Below, one piece after another: positions 1 through 11,321 of a DNA stretch of 11,321 bases (position 1 is its first letter; each line of letters opens with the position of its first letter). The translations under genes and the position numbers were made by a program. The DNA is taken from the IMG/VR virus record IMGVR_UViG_2671180814_000016, one strand, 5' to 3'. The notes beneath the pieces are model-generated. The model was not told where the DNA came from. It worked only from the letters and a program-made list of their open reading frames with translations, and did not search any database. This DNA is from a virus. Lineage: Duplodnaviria; Heunggongvirae; Uroviricota; Caudoviricetes.

Positions 1-1494
<1,494 letters not shown>

Positions 1495-3352: not shown

Positions 3353-3904
3353 TTATCCTATTAATTTTTCACATTGCTCAAAACGCATTGGCCTGAACTC
3401 TCCCTGTACCGCCCATACACCGGCCTCTCTGAGAATTGGGTAATACGTTTTATCTCTGACGGGTACGATCACCTTCTCGCAGTACTGGCGAATGCTTTTT
3501 ATGAGTACTGGAAAGATCAGACGGTCAATGTTCTCTTCTGTGTACCTTCTATTTAATCGGGCAACCTCGAAATCACCTGTAACCAGAGGAATAGCAGAAC
3601 CACCATGTACACCGAGATCATCAAGCCACTGCTGGTTATGTACTTTCATATCCCTTGTCATCTGCCGAAGGAATGGTAAGTACTCGTATGGTTCACCACG
3701 GCCAGTAGTAATCACACAATACAAACCGTTATCCCTGAACCATGCCGCCTTGCTTTCAATAAGCATTAGTTGCCCATGAAGTACTTCTTCTTCCCATAGG
3801 CCGATCTGCCTGATTCCCTCGCGTTCTACATGGCTGACCAACTCAACCCCCAGCAACTGACCACCCAAACTTGTTATCGGTATTGCCCAATTATCAATGT
3901 TCAT
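3353..3904 (-). CDS. EAL-domain-like protein, probably catalytically degenerate (YdiV/PdeH-like motif order), 183 aa
   Basis: Motifs in EAL order and spacing: AIPITSLGGQLLGVELVSH (EAL box as ELV, Arg missing), QWLDDLGVHGG (DDFGTG-like), RQYCEKVIVPVRD (where EGVE is expected, substituted), AVQGEF (QG[YW]F-like). About 55 aa shorter than a canonical EAL domain. Assigned from recalled family motifs, not a search. Confidence 0.55.
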   Translation of the reverse strand: MNIDNWAIPITSLGGQLLGVELVSHVEREGIRQIGLWEEEVLHGQLMLIESKAAWFRDNGLYCVITTGRGEPYEYLPFLRQMTRDMKVHNQQWLDDLGVHGGSAIPLVTGDFEVARLNRRYTEENIDRLIFPVLIKSIRQYCEKVIVPVRDKTYYPILREAGVWAVQGEFRPMRFEQCEKLIG

Positions 3905-3936
3905 AACTTTGCTCGTTACGCTTTAAGTTATTGATA

Positions 3937-3989
3937 ATTGATCATTTTTAAAACATTGGCAATTAAATCGATCAATTTTATTGATCATT
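3937..3989. promoter_or_regulatory. Operator-like repeats containing three GATC sites: 10-mer ATTGATCATT twice (3937..3946, 3980..3989) and palindrome GATCAAT-TTT-ATTGATC (3970..3986)
   Basis: Read directly in the 192-bp divergent intergenic region between the EAL-like gene (minus) and the LexA-box gene (plus). Three GATC tetramers within 50 bp of AT-rich DNA. Confidence 0.45.
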
Positions 3990-4055
3990 ACAATAGAATT
4001 AATCATTCAAAGTGGTAAACAAAGGGGTGCTGGATTTTTGGGAAACTGACTGCAA

Positions 4056-4075
4056 TACTGTACATATATACAGTA
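4056..4075 (+). promoter_or_regulatory. LexA (SOS) box TACTGTACATATATACAGTA
   Basis: Exact CTGT-N8-ACAG with AT-rich spacer and palindromic TA flanks. Differs from the E. coli consensus TACTGTATATATATACAGTA at one spacer position. Lies 21 bp upstream of the ATG at 4097 and 7 bp upstream of a strong SD (GAGGAGGG), where it would overlap the promoter. Confidence 0.7.
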
Positions 4076-4096
4076 ATACATAGAGGAGGGTAACAA

Positions 4097-4408
4097 ATGA
4101 GCAAAGACGGCTATGATCCATCCATTACGCGAGGGGTTCAGAAGTTCTCACATAACGGTCGCTGGGCAACCGTGTGTTATTGGGGATCTGCACTAACAGA
4201 ATTTCATTATGGGGATAGGGTATTCTTCCAGAATCAGTACAGGGAATACTGGTTAGGTACTATAGAGAGAGATTGTTTTGTACTTACCTGTGAAACACCA
4301 CTAATAAGTGTTATTGATGGGTTAGCATATCTATCTGCTGAGTACCGGATGAATCAAAGCAGTGAAGAAGGTGATTGGTTCTGTGATCAGGGGGAACTAC
4401 CCTTCTGA
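4097..4408 (+). CDS. Hypothetical 103-aa protein, predicted SOS-regulated
   Basis: ATG start with strong SD GAGGAGGG 6 nt upstream; LexA box immediately upstream. No TM segment. C-terminal EEGDWFCDQGE faintly recalls the DinI C-terminus (DDWF), which is too weak to assign. Confidence 0.7.
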   Translation: MSKDGYDPSITRGVQKFSHNGRWATVCYWGSALTEFHYGDRVFFQNQYREYWLGTIERDCFVLTCETPLISVIDGLAYLSAEYRMNQSSEEGDWFCDQGELPF

Positions 4409-4413
4409 GGATA

Positions 4414-4466
4414 CACGTACTGCTCACCCCAACAAAATAACAAACCCAACATGTGAGCAGTACGTG
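4414..4466 (+). other. Perfect 14-bp inverted repeat (CACGTACTGCTCAC / GTGAGCAGTACGTG) with 25-nt A/C-rich spacer; stem-loop or dimeric binding site
   Basis: Arms 4414..4427 and 4453..4466 are exact reverse complements. Begins 6 bp after the stop of the 4097..4408 gene and precedes the 4541 gene. No U-run directly after, so not a canonical intrinsic terminator. Confidence 0.5.
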
Positions 4467-4540
4467 AACGGGTAGTGTACTTGATTGTGTTTCGGATGGT
4501 AAAGTATTTGCCCCTTTAATGCGTTCAGGAACTACTTTCG

Positions 4541-5209
4541 ATGGATTGTAGAAAATTAAATATCGTTCTTTTATCGACCGTAGCAGTATTACTGGTTGTT
4601 GTAATTTTAGTACTAATAAAATCACTCTTTGTTGGTTCTGAAGGTTTCGAGTGGGGATCGGTTAGTGACTGGGTTAGTTCTATTGCCAATCTCATTATGG
4701 CTGGAGCAGCCCTATATGCAGCATGGAACGCTAAAAATTGGTTTCAAACTAAAATAAAGGAAAATGCTTTAAATCAAGTTACTAAGTTCTGGACTAATTG
4801 CGATCTTTTTTCGTTGGAGATGTTGAAAACATATGAAAATATATGCAACCTTAACAATACTGAACCAGATATAGAACCAAAAAATTTCGCACATTTAGTT
4901 AAAACTGAACGAGAAGTTATCGATCTATTAAACATTAAGTTAGCCTCATTAAAAAGCGAATTGCAATCACTTACCTTTTGGAAAGTATCGCCAAAAGATG
5001 AAGCTATATTCAATAATTATTTCTTCAGTAATCAAATTGCTTTAGGAACATTGAGGGAAGCGATAAGTTTTGATATAAATGACATTCATGATAGATATCA
5101 TTACAATGTCAGCTATGGAAAGTTATTAGTAGATACATTTGATAGTTTAATAGAAGCACATGCAACCTTGAAAAAGGACATGAATAACTTATTCGTTTTC
5201 TCTAATTAG
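4541..5209 (+). CDS. Membrane protein: two N-terminal TM helices plus ~150-aa soluble domain, unknown function
   Basis: 222-aa ORF with ATG start; weak SD (AGGA 10 nt upstream). TM segments LNIVLLSTVAVLLVVVILVLI and VSSIANLIMAGAALYAAW. Very AT-rich and nearly devoid of GTAC, unlike flanking DNA. Confidence 0.6.
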   Translation: MDCRKLNIVLLSTVAVLLVVVILVLIKSLFVGSEGFEWGSVSDWVSSIANLIMAGAALYAAWNAKNWFQTKIKENALNQVTKFWTNCDLFSLEMLKTYENICNLNNTEPDIEPKNFAHLVKTEREVIDLLNIKLASLKSELQSLTFWKVSPKDEAIFNNYFFSNQIALGTLREAISFDINDIHDRYHYNVSYGKLLVDTFDSLIEAHATLKKDMNNLFVFSN

Positions 5210-6021: not shown

Positions 6022-6765
6022 TCAAATTTTATTGCTGTCTTTAAACAACAGTGCTTTTAAACTTTCGACACTTAATACTTCGTTACCGCGATGTACCATT
6101 GCGTGACAGTTTGGACAAAGTGGAACCATATCAGTAATTGGATTTACCTCGTAATCCTCGCCTACTGTGTGTAGCGGTTTGATATGATGAACGTGTATAA
6201 AGCCCTTGGCGTGTTCACCATAGACTTTCTCAAAGTTAAACTCACAACACCCGCAGGAAGTACCATGATGGTCAATACAAGCCTGTCGTGCTTTTGGATC
6301 ACGCTCGTAGGAGTTTACTGTAACTTGCTTTTTTGCACCCTCAGCGTAGTTTTCAGGTGAGGTAATTTCATCTGGAAATGGATTAGGTAAAAAGTCTGCA
6401 TACCAAACTGTTCCTTCTTTCCGAAGGTAACGTTTTTCAAGTTTTGGAGTGAACCGTTTGATAACAGCTACATCTCTATTCTCATCGTTTCGTCCCTGCT
6501 CCATATCAAACGTGTAAAGCTCATAACCTTCAGCTATCAATTGAATGTGTTCAATAGCTTGAATATATCCAAGATTTTTTCTTTCCTTTCCCTCCACAAC
6601 TTTGGTTTTCCACCGCTCCCTCAGAATGACTGATCTTTCTTGCTCTTTTTGTACATCCCATGCACCAAAGATAACCATTTTCTTGTCGTGGTTCACAAAT
6701 GACCAACTCCAAGTCCAGTTACTACAAGTAGCACCATGCGACTGGATGAATTGTTTTCTGTTCAT
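6022..6765 (-). CDS. McrA-like zinc-finger HNH nuclease with an unassigned ~170-aa N-terminal domain
   Basis: 247-aa ORF with ATG start and strong RBS GAGAGGGA. C-terminus CGCCEFNFEKVYGEHAKGFIHVHHIKPLHTVGEDYEVNPITDMVPLCPNCHAMVH matches the CxxC...HH...N...CPNCH..H pattern of McrA-type HNH domains as recalled from E. coli McrA. The N-terminal region matches no domain I can name. Confidence 0.8.
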   Translation of the reverse strand: MNRKQFIQSHGATCSNWTWSWSFVNHDKKMVIFGAWDVQKEQERSVILRERWKTKVVEGKERKNLGYIQAIEHIQLIAEGYELYTFDMEQGRNDENRDVAVIKRFTPKLEKRYLRKEGTVWYADFLPNPFPDEITSPENYAEGAKKQVTVNSYERDPKARQACIDHHGTSCGCCEFNFEKVYGEHAKGFIHVHHIKPLHTVGEDYEVNPITDMVPLCPNCHAMVHRGNEVLSVESLKALLFKDSNKI

Positions 6766-7784: not shown

Positions 7785-7815
7785 ATGCCAGTACTGGAAT
7801 ACTGGCATTTTTTAT
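7785..7815. terminator. Hairpin ATGCCAGTA-ctggaa-TACTGGCAT followed by T-run ATTTTTTAT on the plus strand; possible bidirectional terminator at the 3' end of the HNH homing endonuclease gene
   Basis: Stem arms are exact reverse complements and contain the palindrome CCAGTACTGG. The U-run is strong in plus orientation and weak in minus orientation. The T-run overlaps the minus-strand stop codon of the 7812..8366 gene. Confidence 0.45.
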
Positions 7816-8366
7816 GGTTTACGTTGAATGGTTAGGCTTTGTATTCTTTGTCTTTGCTTATTCGTAAGATATGTTGTGTACCATTTTGAATAGGTAGTAC
7901 CTTTGAATAACTTACCTATATTCTGAGGGCAAATATTAATACCAGTTTGATTTAAAAACCATTTAGTGATTGCATATTGAGATAATTGTCCTTTAAGGTA
8001 CTCTCCAACAATCATTAACCATTGCTTTAGAGTAAGCTTTTGAGTACGAGTACCTTTATGCTTTCTATTGGAATTATTAACCTTCTGAGTTACCCAACGT
8101 AAATTTTTTGCTTTGTTATTCATTTTATCGCGGTCGATATGATCTACAGTGTATCTTCCTCCAATGGGTTTAGCACCATTGAATAAAGTACAAACCAAAA
8201 CATGTACATATAGTGATTTGCCATTAATAGAAACTTTTTTGTATCCATTAGATGGGTTTTTCGTAGCTATATACTGTTTTGTTTTATCATTGTAAACATC
8301 GCCATTTTCAGATACGTAGTAATGTTTTGAATTTGGAATTAATCTCCAAGTGATTTTAGGGTTCAT
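7812..8366 (-). CDS. HNH homing endonuclease (HNH_3 / NUMOD4-type) with probable C-terminal DNA-binding region
   Basis: 184-aa ORF with ATG start and RBS AAGGA 8 nt upstream. N-terminal W.LIP....YYVSENGDVY (NUMOD4-like), then YVHVLVCTLFNG...VDHIDRDKMNNKAKNLRWVTQKVN, typical of free-standing phage HNH homing endonucleases. Confidence 0.8.
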   Translation of the reverse strand: MNPKITWRLIPNSKHYYVSENGDVYNDKTKQYIATKNPSNGYKKVSINGKSLYVHVLVCTLFNGAKPIGGRYTVDHIDRDKMNNKAKNLRWVTQKVNNSNRKHKGTRTQKLTLKQWLMIVGEYLKGQLSQYAITKWFLNQTGINICPQNIGKLFKGTTYSKWYTTYLTNKQRQRIQSLTIQRKP

Positions 8367-8420: not shown

Positions 8421-8723
8421 TTAGAGGCCAGTAGCATTTAGCCTATATTCATCCCTCGCCTTCTCACATACGATTAGCAAACGGTTTAAACATTCCTTAT
8501 GTTCATCTTCAGCAGCCAGTACAAACATTACCATTGGTAATCCGTCGATTAGGTAATTTCCATTCCATGTAATAGTACCTAATACTTCTGGATCACCAAT
8601 TCGTTCATAATGTGCTTCTAATGAACCTTCCTGATACTTCACACAATAGAAATAGTGATAATCCATATCCCCTACTATTGTGTAATCATCAAAATATTGT
8701 ACTAAATCAAAGTCATTCTTCAT
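8421..8723 (-). CDS. Hypothetical acidic protein (~100 aa), translationally coupled to the upstream RHH gene
   Basis: ORF-track ORF 8421..8729 starts at a GTG; the ATG two codons in (8721..8723) gives MKNDFDLVQYF... It overlaps the stop of the RHH gene (8713..8715) by 11 nt. No toxin-family motif recognised. Confidence 0.55.
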   Translation of the reverse strand: MKNDFDLVQYFDDYTIVGDMDYHYFYCVKYQEGSLEAHYERIGDPEVLGTITWNGNYLIDGLPMVMFVLAAEDEHKECLNRLLIVCEKARDEYRLNATGL

Positions 8724-8898
8724 TACCACCGCCCTGTAAAATCATGTACTGATTAATTAAGTACTGAACACAGGCTGATAATGAATCTTTCTGTACCTTC
8801 CCACTACTAATTAGCTGGTTAAGTACAAGTACTTGATCGTCATTAAGACGTGCGGTTACTACATGATGTTTGCGTTCCTTTAAAGTTACTTTTTTCAT
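8713..8898 (-). CDS. Ribbon-helix-helix DNA-binding protein (Arc/Mnt/CopG-like)
   Basis: 61-aa ORF with ATG start and RBS AAGGA 7 nt upstream. HVVTARLNDDQVLVLNQLISSGKVQKDSLSACVQYLINQYM fits beta-strand / helix / G-turn / helix, comparable to P22 Arc as recalled. Preceded by TGTAT direct repeats and a terminator. Confidence 0.6.
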   Translation of the reverse strand: MKKVTLKERKHHVVTARLNDDQVLVLNQLISSGKVQKDSLSACVQYLINQYMILQGGGNEE

Positions 8899-10033: not shown

Positions 10034-11321
10034 TTAATCCATCCAATCAATCATATCTTCATTAACAATGATCTCAAATTTTTCACGCTTGAGAAGATTA
10101 AGATACAATCCAACATCATCAAGTATTTTGGTACGGCTAATGGCAAGCGACCACATATCAGTACCAGATGTAACGGAGGCAATGAAAACGGTTTTGCCCT
10201 CTTCATTGACAGTGTAGACACGCTCGCCGCTTGTTTCAGAGATTACGATCTCATGTAGTACTTCACCCCCGCCCCGCTTGTTATCAATCACAAGCGTATG
10301 GGATAGGACATCATTGAAGTATTCCAACTGTACAAATATACGCTTTTCAAAAACCCAGTACTTAACAGATTTCAGTACTAATCTTACTTCTTTCCGTAAC
10401 TTTGCACGTAACTCGACATTCAATGGATCAAGTACTTTATTAATATCGAAATCAAATACAGGGATTTCTTTGATGTTCTTTGAATTTAATATCTCAGATT
10501 CTATTTCTTCAATTCTATCCTGTACCTCAGTTAAACCCGTCATTAATGGTAACGAGGCTTTCTTACCTGCTGCCTTACGTTCATTAATTTTAACCTGATA
10601 GGTTTCTGCCTCTTTCTGTAAAGTACTTAACTCTTCTCGCAATGATGCAAGCAATGAATCTGAATCCGACTTACCTTCCATCATCAATTTATTGAAGTCT
10701 ACATTTTTGACAAGCTGTAGAATGTTCTTTTCAATTCTCATGTACTGGATAGATTTAGCATCGCAGATCTTCTTTTCTTCCCTGTTACGACAAATAACAT
10801 ACTTAGTTCGTACATGATTATAGTGAATTGCAATATTGCCCCCACAGTGACCGCATTTCAGCATCTTCGGGAAGAGGTTAGTAATGTAATCATCCTGAGC
10901 AATGGTAATGTCCTTACGGATACGATTAGCTATACCATTCCGCGATAACTTCTCATTAGCCCGTTCAAAGGTGAGGTTATCGATAATCTTCATGGTAACT
11001 ACTTTCTTATCACGTAGTACCCTCAGTACATTGACGGTACTCCACCCTTTCGGCAAGCGTTTTACAATCGCCCCTGAACCAAGGCCTGTCTCATAAAGTT
11101 TAAAAATCTCTCGGACAACTTCTGGTTCAAGTAATAGATCCTCTGCTGGCTTCTTCTTCTCCAACATAACGCGATCCATCATTCTATTCGCTGTCAGGAA
11201 CAACTCTTCGTCGATGATTTTCGGGTAAACGTTTGGTACTACCTCACCGTTGTAACGTTCATGCTCGCCCAACAAACGGCGATCACGTATCTGAGGTGTA
11301 CTGGCAATAGCGGACACTACC
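10034..11321 (-). CDS. Large serine recombinase/integrase, C-terminal ~428 residues; 5' end (catalytic resolvase domain) beyond the right edge
   Basis: Frame is open to the window edge; the ORF-track start at 11317 is a GTG and probably not the true start. Contains recombinase-domain-like segments (YPKIIDEELF, EPEVVREIFKLYETGLGSGAIVKRL), a zinc-ribbon motif (CGHCGG...C..C) and a coiled-coil-like stretch (LREELSTLQKEAETYQVKINERK), the architecture of large serine recombinases. Confidence 0.65.
   Translation of the reverse strand, partial: VVSAIASTPQIRDRRLLGEHERYNGEVVPNVYPKIIDEELFLTANRMMDRVMLEKKKPAEDLLLEPEVVREIFKLYETGLGSGAIVKRLPKGWSTVNVLRVLRDKKVVTMKIIDNLTFERANEKLSRNGIANRIRKDITIAQDDYITNLFPKMLKCGHCGGNIAIHYNHVRTKYVICRNREEKKICDAKSIQYMRIEKNILQLVKNVDFNKLMMEGKSDSDSLLASLREELSTLQKEAETYQVKINERKAAGKKASLPLMTGLTEVQDRIEEIESEILNSKNIKEIPVFDFDINKVLDPLNVELRAKLRKEVRLVLKSVKYWVFEKRIFVQLEYFNDVLSHTLVIDNKRGGGEVLHEIVISETSGERVYTVNEEGKTVFIASVTSGTDMWSLAISRTKILDDVGLYLNLLKREKFEIIVNEDMIDWMD

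What the first reader, a model, noticed from the sequence alone, without database searches (positions are those of the whole stretch)
4056..5209. SOS-controlled two-gene module: LexA box, 103-aa soluble protein, hairpin, 2-TM membrane protein
The LexA box is a near-perfect match to the gammaproteobacterial consensus and overlaps the promoter of a gene with the strongest RBS in the window. Downstream lie a perfect 14-bp hairpin and a membrane protein with a ~150-aa cytoplasmic domain. This plus-strand island runs opposite to almost everything else. An SOS-induced small protein plus membrane partner could be an antirepressor/induction switch, a lysis or kil-type function, or a damage-triggered abortive-infection or toxin module. 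Neither protein matches a family I recognise.
Basis: partly seen in the sequence, partly recalled or inferred. Interest (0 to 1): 0.7.

Follow-up and report, generated by a model that had tools for sequence, protein, structure and literature searches.

The report
SOS-switched prophage gene with docking tail
A DNA-damage-switched gene in a Shigella prophage remnant encodes a small uncharacterised protein whose near-invariant tail resembles the peptides that dock onto the bacterial DNA-replication machinery, while the membrane-protein gene next to it looks like a separate, swappable passenger rather than its partner.

Summary
The LexA box (4056-4075) matches the 20-mer consensus at 19 of 20 positions and is the only such site in the window. 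It is conserved upstream of the homologous gene in 62 of 71 related loci, with variable spacer bases, and also in distant relatives. SOS control of the 103-aa gene is therefore very likely, though untested.

The 103-aa protein belongs to phrog_2100, a narrow family of unknown function. It is acidic and its predicted fold has no known relative. Its best-conserved feature is a disordered tail ending Q-x-E-L-P-F. That tail resembles beta-clamp-binding peptides (Hda QLSLPL; Mor/MuC Qx[DE][LM]F) and the SSB tip (DDDIPF).

The obligate two-gene module is not supported. The 222-aa protein has two membrane helices and a four-helix bundle. Its N-terminus is conserved, its C-terminus is hypervariable, and it has its own conserved extended -10 element. 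It follows the small gene in only 26 of 68 loci and also occurs without it.

The hairpin is a real, covarying structure with a conserved C/A-rich loop. It recurs in front of other plus-strand accessory genes and is not a canonical terminator.

Best reading: an autonomous SOS gene that docks onto a host replication or repair hub. An antirepressor role remains a live rival.

The parts
4030..4035 (+). Candidate -35 element (CTGGAT) of the SOS promoter
   Evidence: CTGGAT or CTGGAA recurs at the same distance from the LexA box in many related loci. It is a weak match to TTGACA, so the assignment is inferred.
4051..4059 (+). Candidate extended -10 element (TGCAATACT), overlapping the left edge of the LexA box
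   Evidence: TGCAATA immediately before CTGT is conserved across most related loci. An alternative pair is CTGACT at 4046-4051 with TACAGT at 4069-4074, 17 nt apart. Both candidates are covered by the box. Inferred.
4056..4075 (+). LexA (SOS) box TACTGTACATATATACAGTA
   Evidence: It matches the consensus at 19 of 20 positions and is unique in the window. CTGT-N8-ACAG is kept 33-53 nt upstream of the homologous gene in 62 of 71 loci, with variable N8, and also in the distant relatives L107 and L108.
4085..4089 (+). Shine-Dalgarno sequence GGAGG, 7 nt before the ATG
   Evidence: Read from the sequence. GGAGGG is conserved in related loci.
4097..4408 (+). Gene for the 103-aa acidic protein (phrog_2100 family; alpha/beta domain plus disordered tail)
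   Evidence: ORF listed. It matches phrog_2100 at E 4.8e-9. There are 21 homologue clusters and only 37 representatives among 1.84 billion. The AF2 model has pLDDT 84.8. No fold relative was found.
4370..4405 (+). Codons for the C-terminal tail (residues 92-103, GDWFCDQGELPF) carrying the near-invariant Q-x-E-L-P-F-COOH motif
   Evidence: Among 75 distinct family sequences: Q(-5) 74, E(-3) 73, L(-2) 75, P(-1) 74 and F(0) 75. The motif is kept in very distant members. This region has low pLDDT of about 61.
4414..4466 (+). Stem-loop with a 14-bp perfect stem and a 25-nt G-free loop containing AACAAACCC
   Evidence: Found and folded. Covariation supports 10 of 12 pairs across 17 loci. The same loop core with unrelated stems occurs at other sites. 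No Rfam family matches.
4474..4480 (+). Conserved AGTGTAC box between the hairpin and the membrane-gene promoter
   Evidence: Conserved column block in the alignment of 17 loci. Function unknown.
4497..4505 (+). Candidate extended -10 promoter (TGGTAAAGT) of the membrane-protein gene
   Evidence: It is nearly invariant in loci where this gene family follows the small gene. A similar TGGTAGAAT lies upstream of the family member that lacks the small gene (L103). Inferred promoter.
4541..5209 (+). Gene for the 222-aa protein with two membrane helices and a cytoplasmic four-helix bundle (conserved N-terminus, hypervariable C-terminus)
3353..3904 (-). Context: divergent neighbour encoding an STM1697/YdiV-like degenerate EAL-domain protein, at the head of the leftward operon that runs to the small terminase subunit
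   Evidence: Matches PDB 5hxg at E 4.6e-25. It is the divergent neighbour of the small gene in 29 of 68 loci.

Best explanation
The unit is an autonomous, LexA-repressed prophage gene, not a two-gene operon.

Shown by sequence and comparison:
- A near-consensus LexA box sits on the promoter region of a strongly translated 103-aa gene.
- The pairing of box and gene is conserved across dozens of related prophages and in distant relatives. In one of these the gene is followed directly by a canonical terminator.
- It is the only good LexA box found in these phage genomes.
- The gene always lies back-to-back with the late packaging operon.

Inferred:
- In undamaged cells LexA occludes the promoter.
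- DNA damage leads to RecA-stimulated LexA cleavage and a burst of the small acidic protein.
- Its folded alpha/beta domain carries a flexible acidic tail that ends in the near-invariant peptide Q-x-E-L-P-F-COOH.
- I propose this tail is a docking peptide for a conserved host replication or repair hub. The favoured target is the hydrophobic cleft of the beta sliding clamp; the alternative is the SSB-tip pockets of SSB-interacting proteins.
- Docking would tie the phage's response to the state of the host replisome. It could block host replication or repair proteins at the hub, or recruit the hub to phage DNA or to late transcription, as phage Mu's MuC does.

The stem-loop 5 nt after the stop codon marks the 3' boundary of this transcript, as an attenuator or stabiliser. 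The 222-aa membrane protein is a separate accessory gene (a moron) with its own extended -10 promoter and a swappable cytoplasmic domain. It is most plausibly a prophage-encoded exclusion or defence protein.
For: SOS control:
- The box matches the consensus at 19 of 20 positions and is unique in the window.
- It is conserved with variable spacer bases in 62 of 71 loci, and in 5 more with one mismatch. It is also present in the distant relatives L107 and L108.
- It overlaps conserved promoter-like elements.
- It is the only near-consensus box in loci of up to 23 kb from the same phage family.

Autonomy of the small gene:
- L108 has box, gene and an intrinsic terminator in a different context.
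- The downstream gene is not conserved.
- The membrane gene has its own conserved TGGTAAAGT element and exists without the small gene.

Docking tail:
- Q-x-E-L-P-F-COOH is the most conserved part of the family and lies in a low-confidence, presumably disordered tail.
- It is retained where the rest of the protein is about 25-30% identical by my reading of the sequences.
- The variants QGELDF and QGELDFR keep Q, L and F but not P or the free terminus. That fits a clamp motif better than an SSB tip.
- Precedent: phage Mu's MuC and Mor use terminal clamp-binding motifs Qx[D/E][L/M]F and QPDLF (PMC12867686). Hda's QLSLPL is cited from my own knowledge. The SSB tip is DDDIPF (PMC5872125).
- The protein is acidic (15 D/E against 8 K/R, counted from the sequence), so it is more likely a protein binder than a DNA binder.

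Genomic position: the gene is always 0.3-3.4 kb upstream of, and divergent from, the small terminase gene.
Against: - No binding was tested.
- The tail departs from the clamp consensus at position 2 (G, not L), and it is not a perfect SSB tip (E for D, with only scattered acidic residues).
- The Cartapus homologue lacks QxELPF and ends NYSLFD.
- The gene is truncated, reduced to a remnant or out of reach in 7 of 18 independently sampled relatives, so it is not indispensable.
- The fold gives no functional hint.
- Promoters and transcript ends are inferred from conservation only. The consensus scan called no promoter at the box.
- The hairpin lacks a U-tract, so read-through into the membrane gene under SOS cannot be excluded.
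Confidence: 0.4

Rival explanations
1. The 103-aa protein is a LexA-controlled antirepressor or induction trigger, in the manner of 186 Tum, Gifsy GfoA/GftA or N15 AntC. It would bind the prophage's own maintenance repressor, or activate the adjacent late operon, and so couple induction to SOS.
For: [quoted passage not shown]
- It is the only SOS input found in these phages.
- No CI-like or S24-type repressor was recognisable in the regions examined.
- The gene is back-to-back with the late operon.
- An acidic small protein suits a repressor binder.
Against: - It shows no similarity to Tum or GftA.
- No cognate repressor was identified.
- The family occurs in unrelated phage backgrounds: a P2-like phage (Cartapus), where it is the third gene of an SOS operon behind the position PSP3 uses for its antirepressor, and a locus next to a HigB/HigA-like pair. 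This argues for a conserved host target rather than a phage-specific repressor.
- The gene is lost or truncated in some relatives.
Confidence: 0.25
2. This is the first reader's model: the two genes form one SOS-triggered module. It would be a damage-induced toxin, abortive-infection, lysis or kil pair in which the small protein regulates or partners the membrane protein.
For: - The two genes are adjacent on the same strand in the window and in a subset of loci, with a conserved intergenic layout.
- The hairpin has no U-tract, so read-through is possible.
- There is an architectural parallel with 186 p95-tum-t95a-orf97 and with Cartapus, where a homologue is followed by a membrane protein.
- One database entry names the 222-aa protein 'Phage abortive infection protein'.
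Against: - The pair co-occurs in only 26 of 68 loci.
- The membrane protein is 33% identical where the small protein is 93% identical.
- The membrane gene stands alone in L103 and has its own conserved -10 element.
- There are no PADLOC, Pfam, NCBIfam or PHROG hits.
- It shows no relation to Orf97, CARTA_47 or IrsA.
Confidence: 0.08
3. The small protein is another kind of SOS-phase effector. Candidates are a RecA/SOS modulator like DinI or PsiB, a cell-division inhibitor like SulA, SfiC or Kil, or an anti-defence or anti-nuclease protein. In each case the conserved tail would bind that other target.
For: - In Cartapus a homologue sits in an SOS operon next to dinI.
- Acidic tails and helices that mimic DNA are used by DinI (PMC3121763 reference list; otherwise my own knowledge).
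- The protein is acidic.
Against: - It shows no sequence or fold similarity to any such family.
- The tail motif has no described counterpart in those families, to my knowledge.
Confidence: 0.15

Closest known systems
Coliphage 186 SOS operon (p95 with LexA box, tum, partial terminator t95a, orf97, t95b)
   Same: It has a LexA-repressed promoter outside the immunity region, then a small protein gene, a hairpin and a protein of roughly 220-240 aa. Expression of orf97 blocks 186 infection (annotation).
   Different: There is no sequence similarity between the small protein and Tum or between the 222-aa protein and Orf97. Here the second gene is not co-conserved and seems to have its own promoter. 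The hairpin has a 25-nt conserved loop and no U-tract.
Gifsy prophage SOS operons (LexA box, dinI, antirepressor gfoA/gftA, irsA) and the PSP3/Fels-2 split tum
   Same: These are LexA-controlled small prophage proteins encoded away from the immunity region, followed by a protein of about 200 aa of unknown role (PMC3121763; Gifsy-2 annotation).
   Different: There is no similarity to GftA or IrsA. The window has no dinI and no identified cognate repressor.
Elveevirus Cartapus SOS operon (LexA box, orf44, DinI, CARTA_46, CARTA_47)
   Same: It holds the only phage-database homologue of the small protein (39% identity over residues 26-93). That homologue also lies behind a LexA box and is also followed by an N-terminally membrane-anchored helical protein.
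   Different: The homologue lacks the N-terminal 25 residues and the QxELPF tail. The downstream protein is unrelated to the 222-aa family.
Beta-clamp-binding motifs (QL[SD]LF and QLxLxL; phage Mu MuC/Mor Qx[D/E][L/M]F)
   Same: A terminal, disordered short motif has Q at position 1, an acidic residue at 3, L at 4 and an aromatic or aliphatic last residue. A phage regulator is known to use such motifs (PMC12867686).
   Different: Position 2 is G, not L. There is a P before the last residue (as in Hda QLSLPL, from my own knowledge). Binding is untested, and the protein is not a Mor/C-family member.
SSB C-terminal tip (DDDIPF)
   Same: The extreme C-terminus reads acidic residue, [IL], P, F-COOH after an acidic and aromatic stretch (PMC5872125).
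   Different: The protein is not an OB-fold SSB. Q at -5 is near-invariant here but is not an SSB feature. Two family members have D instead of P, or an extra residue after F.
Prophage morons and superinfection-exclusion membrane proteins
   Same: The 222-aa gene is a low-GC, self-promoted accessory gene in a hypervariable prophage region. Its product is membrane-anchored with a variable domain.
   Different: It matches no described exclusion or defence family. Its function is untested.

Membership tests
LexA-regulated (SOS) gene of Gammaproteobacteria | 16-bp CTGT-N8-ACAG palindrome with an AT-rich spacer, close to the 20-mer consensus | tested here: met
   TACTGTACATATATACAGTA has one mismatch and is unique in the window; 0 of 200 shuffles matched.
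LexA-regulated (SOS) gene of Gammaproteobacteria | The box overlaps the promoter or transcription start of the regulated gene | tested here: inconclusive
   The box lies 22-41 nt upstream of the ATG and overlaps conserved -10-like elements. The consensus scan called no canonical promoter there, and no transcription start data exist.
LexA-regulated (SOS) gene of Gammaproteobacteria | The box is conserved at orthologous loci | tested here: met
   It is exact in 62 of 71 loci, with one mismatch in 5 more, and the N8 bases vary. It is also present in distant relatives.
LexA-regulated (SOS) gene of Gammaproteobacteria | LexA binding and DNA-damage induction | not testable with these tools
   Needs EMSA or ChIP and reporter or RNA assays.
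LexA-controlled prophage antirepressors (Tum, GfoA/GftA, AntC) | Small protein gene under a LexA box, outside the immunity region | tested here: met
   
LexA-controlled prophage antirepressors (Tum, GfoA/GftA, AntC) | Sequence relatedness to a characterised antirepressor | tested here: not met
   BLASTP against Tum gave E 2.1. hhalign against GftA gave probability 0.3%. AntC was not tested.
LexA-controlled prophage antirepressors (Tum, GfoA/GftA, AntC) | A cognate non-cleavable repressor in the same phage, and binding to it | tested here: inconclusive
   No repressor-like gene was recognised in the window or in related loci. Small ORFs remain unassigned, and binding is not testable here.
phrog_2100 (phage protein family of unknown function) | Significant match to the family profile | tested here: met
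   E 4.8e-9, residues 25-91 against profile positions 9-77 of 85.
Beta-clamp-binding proteins | QL[SD]LF or QLxLxL-type motif | tested here: inconclusive
   QGELPF matches positions 1, 3, 4 and 6 but has G at position 2 (motif definitions from PMC12867686).
Beta-clamp-binding proteins | The motif lies in a flexible terminal segment | tested here: met
   It occupies the last 6 residues, where pLDDT is about 61 after the C-terminal helix.
Beta-clamp-binding proteins | Binding to DnaN through the motif | not testable with these tools
A complex model or a two-hybrid assay is needed.
SSB or SSB-tip mimic | C-terminal [DE]-[IL]-P-F-COOH after an acidic stretch | tested here: met
   62 of 76 family sequences of at least 85 aa end in ELPF; positions -11, -10 and -6 are acidic and W/F occupy -9 and -8.
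SSB or SSB-tip mimic | OB-fold ssDNA-binding domain (for being an SSB) | tested here: not met
Two-gene toxin/antitoxin or abortive-infection module | Conserved co-occurrence of the two genes | tested here: not met
   26 of 68 loci carry the pair. The partner is divergent in the closest relative, and the membrane gene occurs alone in L103.
Two-gene toxin/antitoxin or abortive-infection module | Match to a known defence or TA family | tested here: not met
   PADLOC, Pfam, NCBIfam and PHROGs gave no hit for the 222-aa protein.
Intrinsic (Rho-independent) terminator | GC-rich stem, loop of 3-8 nt, U-tract | tested here: not met
   The stem qualifies (14 bp, 8 G-C pairs), but the loop is 25 nt and no T-run follows.

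The most novel reading that the evidence does not exclude
The 103-aa protein would be the founding member of a class of SOS-induced prophage proteins that plug a Q-x-E-L-P-F tail into the beta sliding clamp (or into the SSB-tip pockets of repair and restart proteins). It would thereby serve as the induction or late-transcription trigger of a siphovirus-like prophage family in which no CI-type repressor was recognised. In addition, the conserved-loop, variable-stem hairpin would be a new lineage-specific RNA or ssDNA element that punctuates the phage's plus-strand accessory gene cassettes.
Probability: 0.25. Interest if true: 0.8.

Novelty: new variant of a known kind. Interest (0 to 1): 0.55.

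Why it matters
LexA-controlled prophage genes are the direct link between host DNA damage and prophage behaviour. The characterised examples (Tum, GfoA/GftA, AntC) all act on phage repressors. This family is uncharacterised and has no fold relative, and its near-invariant terminal peptide points at a host replication or repair hub instead. If that holds, it would be a second way, after phage Mu's MuC, for a phage regulator to read or hijack the replisome, and a new route from SOS to prophage physiology in Shigella, Enterobacter, Leclercia and relatives.

Two side results are useful leads on their own. One is a membrane-protein family with a conserved two-helix anchor and a hypervariable cytoplasmic four-helix bundle. 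The other is a covarying hairpin with a conserved loop that marks accessory-gene cassettes.

Tried and rejected
- Whole-window DNA search against phage records found no match. E. coli genomes gave only partial hits around the terminase genes and to IS elements. The small gene occurs in 1 of 5426 complete E. coli genomes.
- Pfam, PADLOC and NCBIfam gave nothing for either protein. The PDB sequence search gave nothing for the small protein.
- Homology to 186 Tum and Orf97, Cartapus orf44 and CARTA_47, and Gifsy-2 GftA and IrsA was rejected in every case.
- Rfam gave no family for the hairpin or anywhere else in the window.
- I looked for a complementary partner of the hairpin loop in the window and found none beyond chance.
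- A scan of IMG/VR for the exact 15-mer loop returned 94 hits. Nearly all were chance; only 8 had hairpin context, mostly on contigs of this phage family already held.
- I searched for the phage's repressor among ORFs between the terminase and integrase genes and found no conserved candidate.
- Literature searches for an SSB-tail mimic or an SOS-induced clamp binder of this kind found nothing specific. The only relevant precedent was the Mu MuC paper.
- The idea that the small gene is a strictly core gene of the phage family was weakened.
Full report
**Setting**

The exact 103-aa and 222-aa proteins occur on about 450 and 400 contigs, named mostly as Shigella sonnei. The window is therefore very likely from that species.

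It is a piece of a prophage. A truncated large serine recombinase lies at 10034-11317. HNH genes, small unknown ORFs and a Nu1-like small terminase subunit at 350-895 follow on the minus strand. The first 58 bases match IS2/IS3 elements, so here the prophage is probably a remnant.

Related elements of about 31-36 kb are common in IMG/VR and in Enterobacter, Leclercia, Scandinavium, Phytobacter and Buttiauxella genomes. They carry terminase, portal, a protease-capsid fusion and siphovirus-type tail genes. In E. coli and Leclercia they sit next to yeaG. The large terminase subunit is at most 35% identical to any sequenced phage in the collection. This is an unstudied phage family.

**Checking the observation**

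- The LexA box at 4056-4075 differs from TACTGTATATATATACAGTA at one position. No shuffle produced a site with 3 mismatches or fewer. It is the only exact CTGT-N8-ACAG in the window.
- GGAGG lies 7 nt before the ATG at 4097.
- The hairpin has perfect 14-nt arms (4414-4427 and 4453-4466) around 25 nt, and the RNA minimum-free-energy fold contains it.
- The 222-aa ORF (4541-5209) has two N-terminal hydrophobic helices. The AlphaFold model (pLDDT 82.8) shows a helical bundle after them.

**Is the LexA box meaningful?**

I fetched 68 loci that encode relatives of the small protein, plus three from an exact-protein look-up.
- An exact CTGT-N8-ACAG lies 33-53 nt upstream of the gene in 62 of 71 loci. 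Five more have one mismatch. Three of the four failures are partial matches, where the stretch examined is displaced.
- The eight spacer bases differ widely between loci while the CTGT and ACAG arms stay. That pattern is expected for a selected LexA site.
- Two very distant family members (about 25-30% identity by my reading) also have the box. In one of them the gene is followed by a textbook stem plus T-run terminator and sits beside a HigB/HigA-like pair.
- Loci of up to 23 kb from the same phages contain no other near-consensus box.
- The box overlaps conserved promoter-like elements, CTGGAT at 4030-4035 and TGCAATACT at 4051-4059. The simple consensus scan did not call a promoter there.

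I regard SOS control as about 90% likely. It has not been shown experimentally.

**The 103-aa protein**
- It matches phrog_2100, a family of unknown function (E 4.8e-9), and nothing in Pfam, PADLOC, NCBIfam or PDB sequences.
- The family is narrow. There are 21 clusters in 5.8 billion proteins and 37 representatives in a full HMMER pass over 1.84 billion.
- The protein is acidic.
- Its most conserved feature is the last twelve residues, [DE]-[DG]-W-F-[CV]-[DE]-Q-G-E-L-P-F. In 75 distinct sequences Q(-5) occurs 74 times, E(-3) 73, L(-2) 75, P(-1) 74 and F(0) 75. The most diverged members keep it as QHELPF, QFELPF, QEELPF, QQELPF and QRELPF.

A near-invariant peptide on a disordered tail is the signature of a docking motif for a conserved partner. 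Two known motifs resemble it.
- Beta-clamp-binding motifs: QL[SD]LF and QLxLxL. Phage Mu's MuC and Mor use terminal Qx[D/E][L/M]F and QPDLF motifs to couple late transcription to the clamp (PMC12867686). Hda's QLSLPL has the same L-P spacing (my own knowledge).
- The SSB C-terminal tip, DDDIPF (PMC5872125).

The near-invariant Q at -5 and the two variants QGELDF and QGELDFR fit a clamp motif somewhat better. The acidic and aromatic run-up and the almost universal free C-terminus fit an SSB-tip mimic.

**Where the gene sits**

In every locus it lies 0.3-3.4 kb upstream of, and divergent from, the small terminase gene. It is therefore back-to-back with the operon that leads into the packaging and structural genes.

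Everything else between the terminase and integrase genes is hypervariable. In 29 of 68 loci the immediate divergent neighbour is a homologue of the window's 183-aa protein. That protein is an STM1697/YdiV-like degenerate EAL protein (PDB 5hxg, E 4.6e-25).

The small gene is common but not universal. I fetched 18 relatives independently through the tail-fibre gene. Of these, 11 have it full length, 2 have it truncated, 3 keep only a remnant of 17-23 aa, and 2 show none within the stretch held.

**The 222-aa protein**

Forty-two relatives were found. Their alignment shows a strongly conserved N-terminal 70 residues: the first membrane helix, an FEWGSVSDW loop and the second membrane helix. A C-terminal domain follows that changes beyond recognition, sometimes behind an almost identical N-terminus.

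On the link to the small gene:
- The family lies on the plus strand downstream of the small gene in 26 of 68 loci, with up to three copies.
- The nearest relative of the window has a 93% identical small protein but a membrane protein only 33% identical.
- An E. coli prophage of the same family has the membrane gene without the small gene.
- About 40 nt before its ATG lies a nearly invariant TGGTAAAGT (window 4497-4505), an extended -10 candidate. The stand-alone copy has TGGTAGAAT at the same place.
- GC falls to 30-34% over the variable half.

This is the profile of a self-promoted accessory gene with a swappable domain, not of an obligate partner.

**The hairpin**

In 17 loci a stem-loop starts 1-5 nt after the small gene's stop codon. 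RNAalifold finds compensatory changes at 10 of 12 pairs. The stems differ almost completely between loci and are usually perfect. The G-free loop keeps the core AACAAACC(N)ACCCA.

The same loop core, inside unrelated perfect stems of 12-23 bp, occurs at other intergenic positions on the plus strand in front of other accessory genes. It is again followed by AGT(G/A)TAC and, 19 nt later, a -10-like hexamer.

It has no U-tract and a long loop, so it is not a canonical terminator. Rfam has no match. An exact 15-mer scan of IMG/VR found hairpin-context copies mostly on contigs of this phage family already held. Its position fits a 3' boundary element, whether attenuator, stabiliser or processing site. 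In a distant relative a canonical terminator occupies the equivalent place. The reason for the conserved loop is unexplained.

**Comparison with known systems**

The layout resembles three known SOS operons:
- The 186 SOS operon: a LexA box at p95, then tum, the partial terminator t95a, then orf97, whose expression blocks 186 infection.
- The Gifsy operons: LexA box, dinI, antirepressor, irsA (PMC3121763).
- Phage Cartapus: LexA box, orf44, DinI, a phrog_2100 homologue, then a membrane-anchored helical protein.

None of the proteins is related to its counterpart. This was tested for Tum, Orf97, orf44, CARTA_47, GftA and IrsA. The resemblance is one of logic, not of family.

In Cartapus the homologue is the third gene of the operon, behind the position that PSP3 uses for its antirepressor. 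With the family's presence in unrelated genomic backgrounds, this makes a phage-specific antirepressor role less likely than a conserved host target. It does not exclude it.

**Verdict**

- SOS control is very likely.
- The two-gene module is not supported as a unit.
- My best mechanistic reading (confidence 0.4): the small gene is an autonomous SOS gene whose product docks, through its Q-x-E-L-P-F tail, onto the beta clamp or onto SSB-tip-binding proteins.
- The main rival is an antirepressor or induction-trigger role (0.25).
- The finding is a new variant of a known kind, a LexA-controlled prophage gene, in an uncharacterised family.
- Two secondary leads are worth following: the hypervariable membrane protein and the conserved-loop hairpin.

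Noticed in passing
window 3353-3904 (-): The 183-aa protein is an STM1697/YdiV-like degenerate EAL-domain protein (PDB 5hxg, E 4.6e-25). To my knowledge that family binds FlhD and represses flagellar genes. It is the conserved divergent neighbour of the SOS gene in 29 of 68 loci, which suggests a prophage-encoded motility regulator.
   Followed up: partly
L009:6536, L047:7452, L054:7365, L059:9272, L063:6795, L066:5297, L103:3661 (all + strand): Further copies of the hairpin carry the conserved loop core AACAAACC(N)ACCCA but unrelated perfect stems of 7-23 bp. They lie in front of other plus-strand accessory genes and are followed by AGT(G/A)TAC and a -10-like hexamer 19 nt later. No Rfam family matches. 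The hairpin-context copies found in IMG/VR lie mostly on contigs of this phage family.
   Followed up: partly
window 3905-4056: The divergent intergenic region holds a motif, TTGATAATTGATCATTTTT, that is conserved across loci, plus three GATC (Dam) sites within about 60 bp. This could be an operator or a methylation-sensitive promoter for the leftward operon.
   Followed up: partly
window 1-58 and 10034-11321: The left end matches IS2/IS3-family elements, and the serine recombinase ORF runs off the right end. In Shigella sonnei the prophage seems to be an IS-bounded remnant, yet both plus-strand genes are intact on hundreds of contigs. Intact relatives sit next to yeaG in E. coli and Leclercia.
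   Followed up: partly
window 6022-6765 (-): This 247-aa HNH protein hits PADLOC models for type IV methyl-directed restriction enzymes (E 4.7e-7). A second, NUMOD4/HNH_3 homing-endonuclease-like gene lies at 7812-8366. The region between the terminase and integrase genes looks like an accessory or defence island.
   Followed up: no
L001 3400-4900 (phage Cartapus, OV696611): This P2-like phage has an unannotated LexA box (TACTGTAAATATAAACAGTG) in front of orf44, DinI, a phrog_2100 homologue and a 203-aa membrane-anchored protein. It is an SOS operon in the position where 186 has tum and orf97.
   Followed up: partly
window 874-1494 (+): A second plus-strand gene encodes 206 aa with no family match. 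Relatives occur at the same place, next to the small terminase gene, in 21 of 68 loci.
   Followed up: no
window 8713-8898 (-): By eye, this 61-aa ORF (KERKHHVVTARLNDDQVLVLNQL...) looks like a ribbon-helix-helix protein and could be a regulator. No profile supports this, and it is found in only 12 of 68 loci.
   Followed up: no
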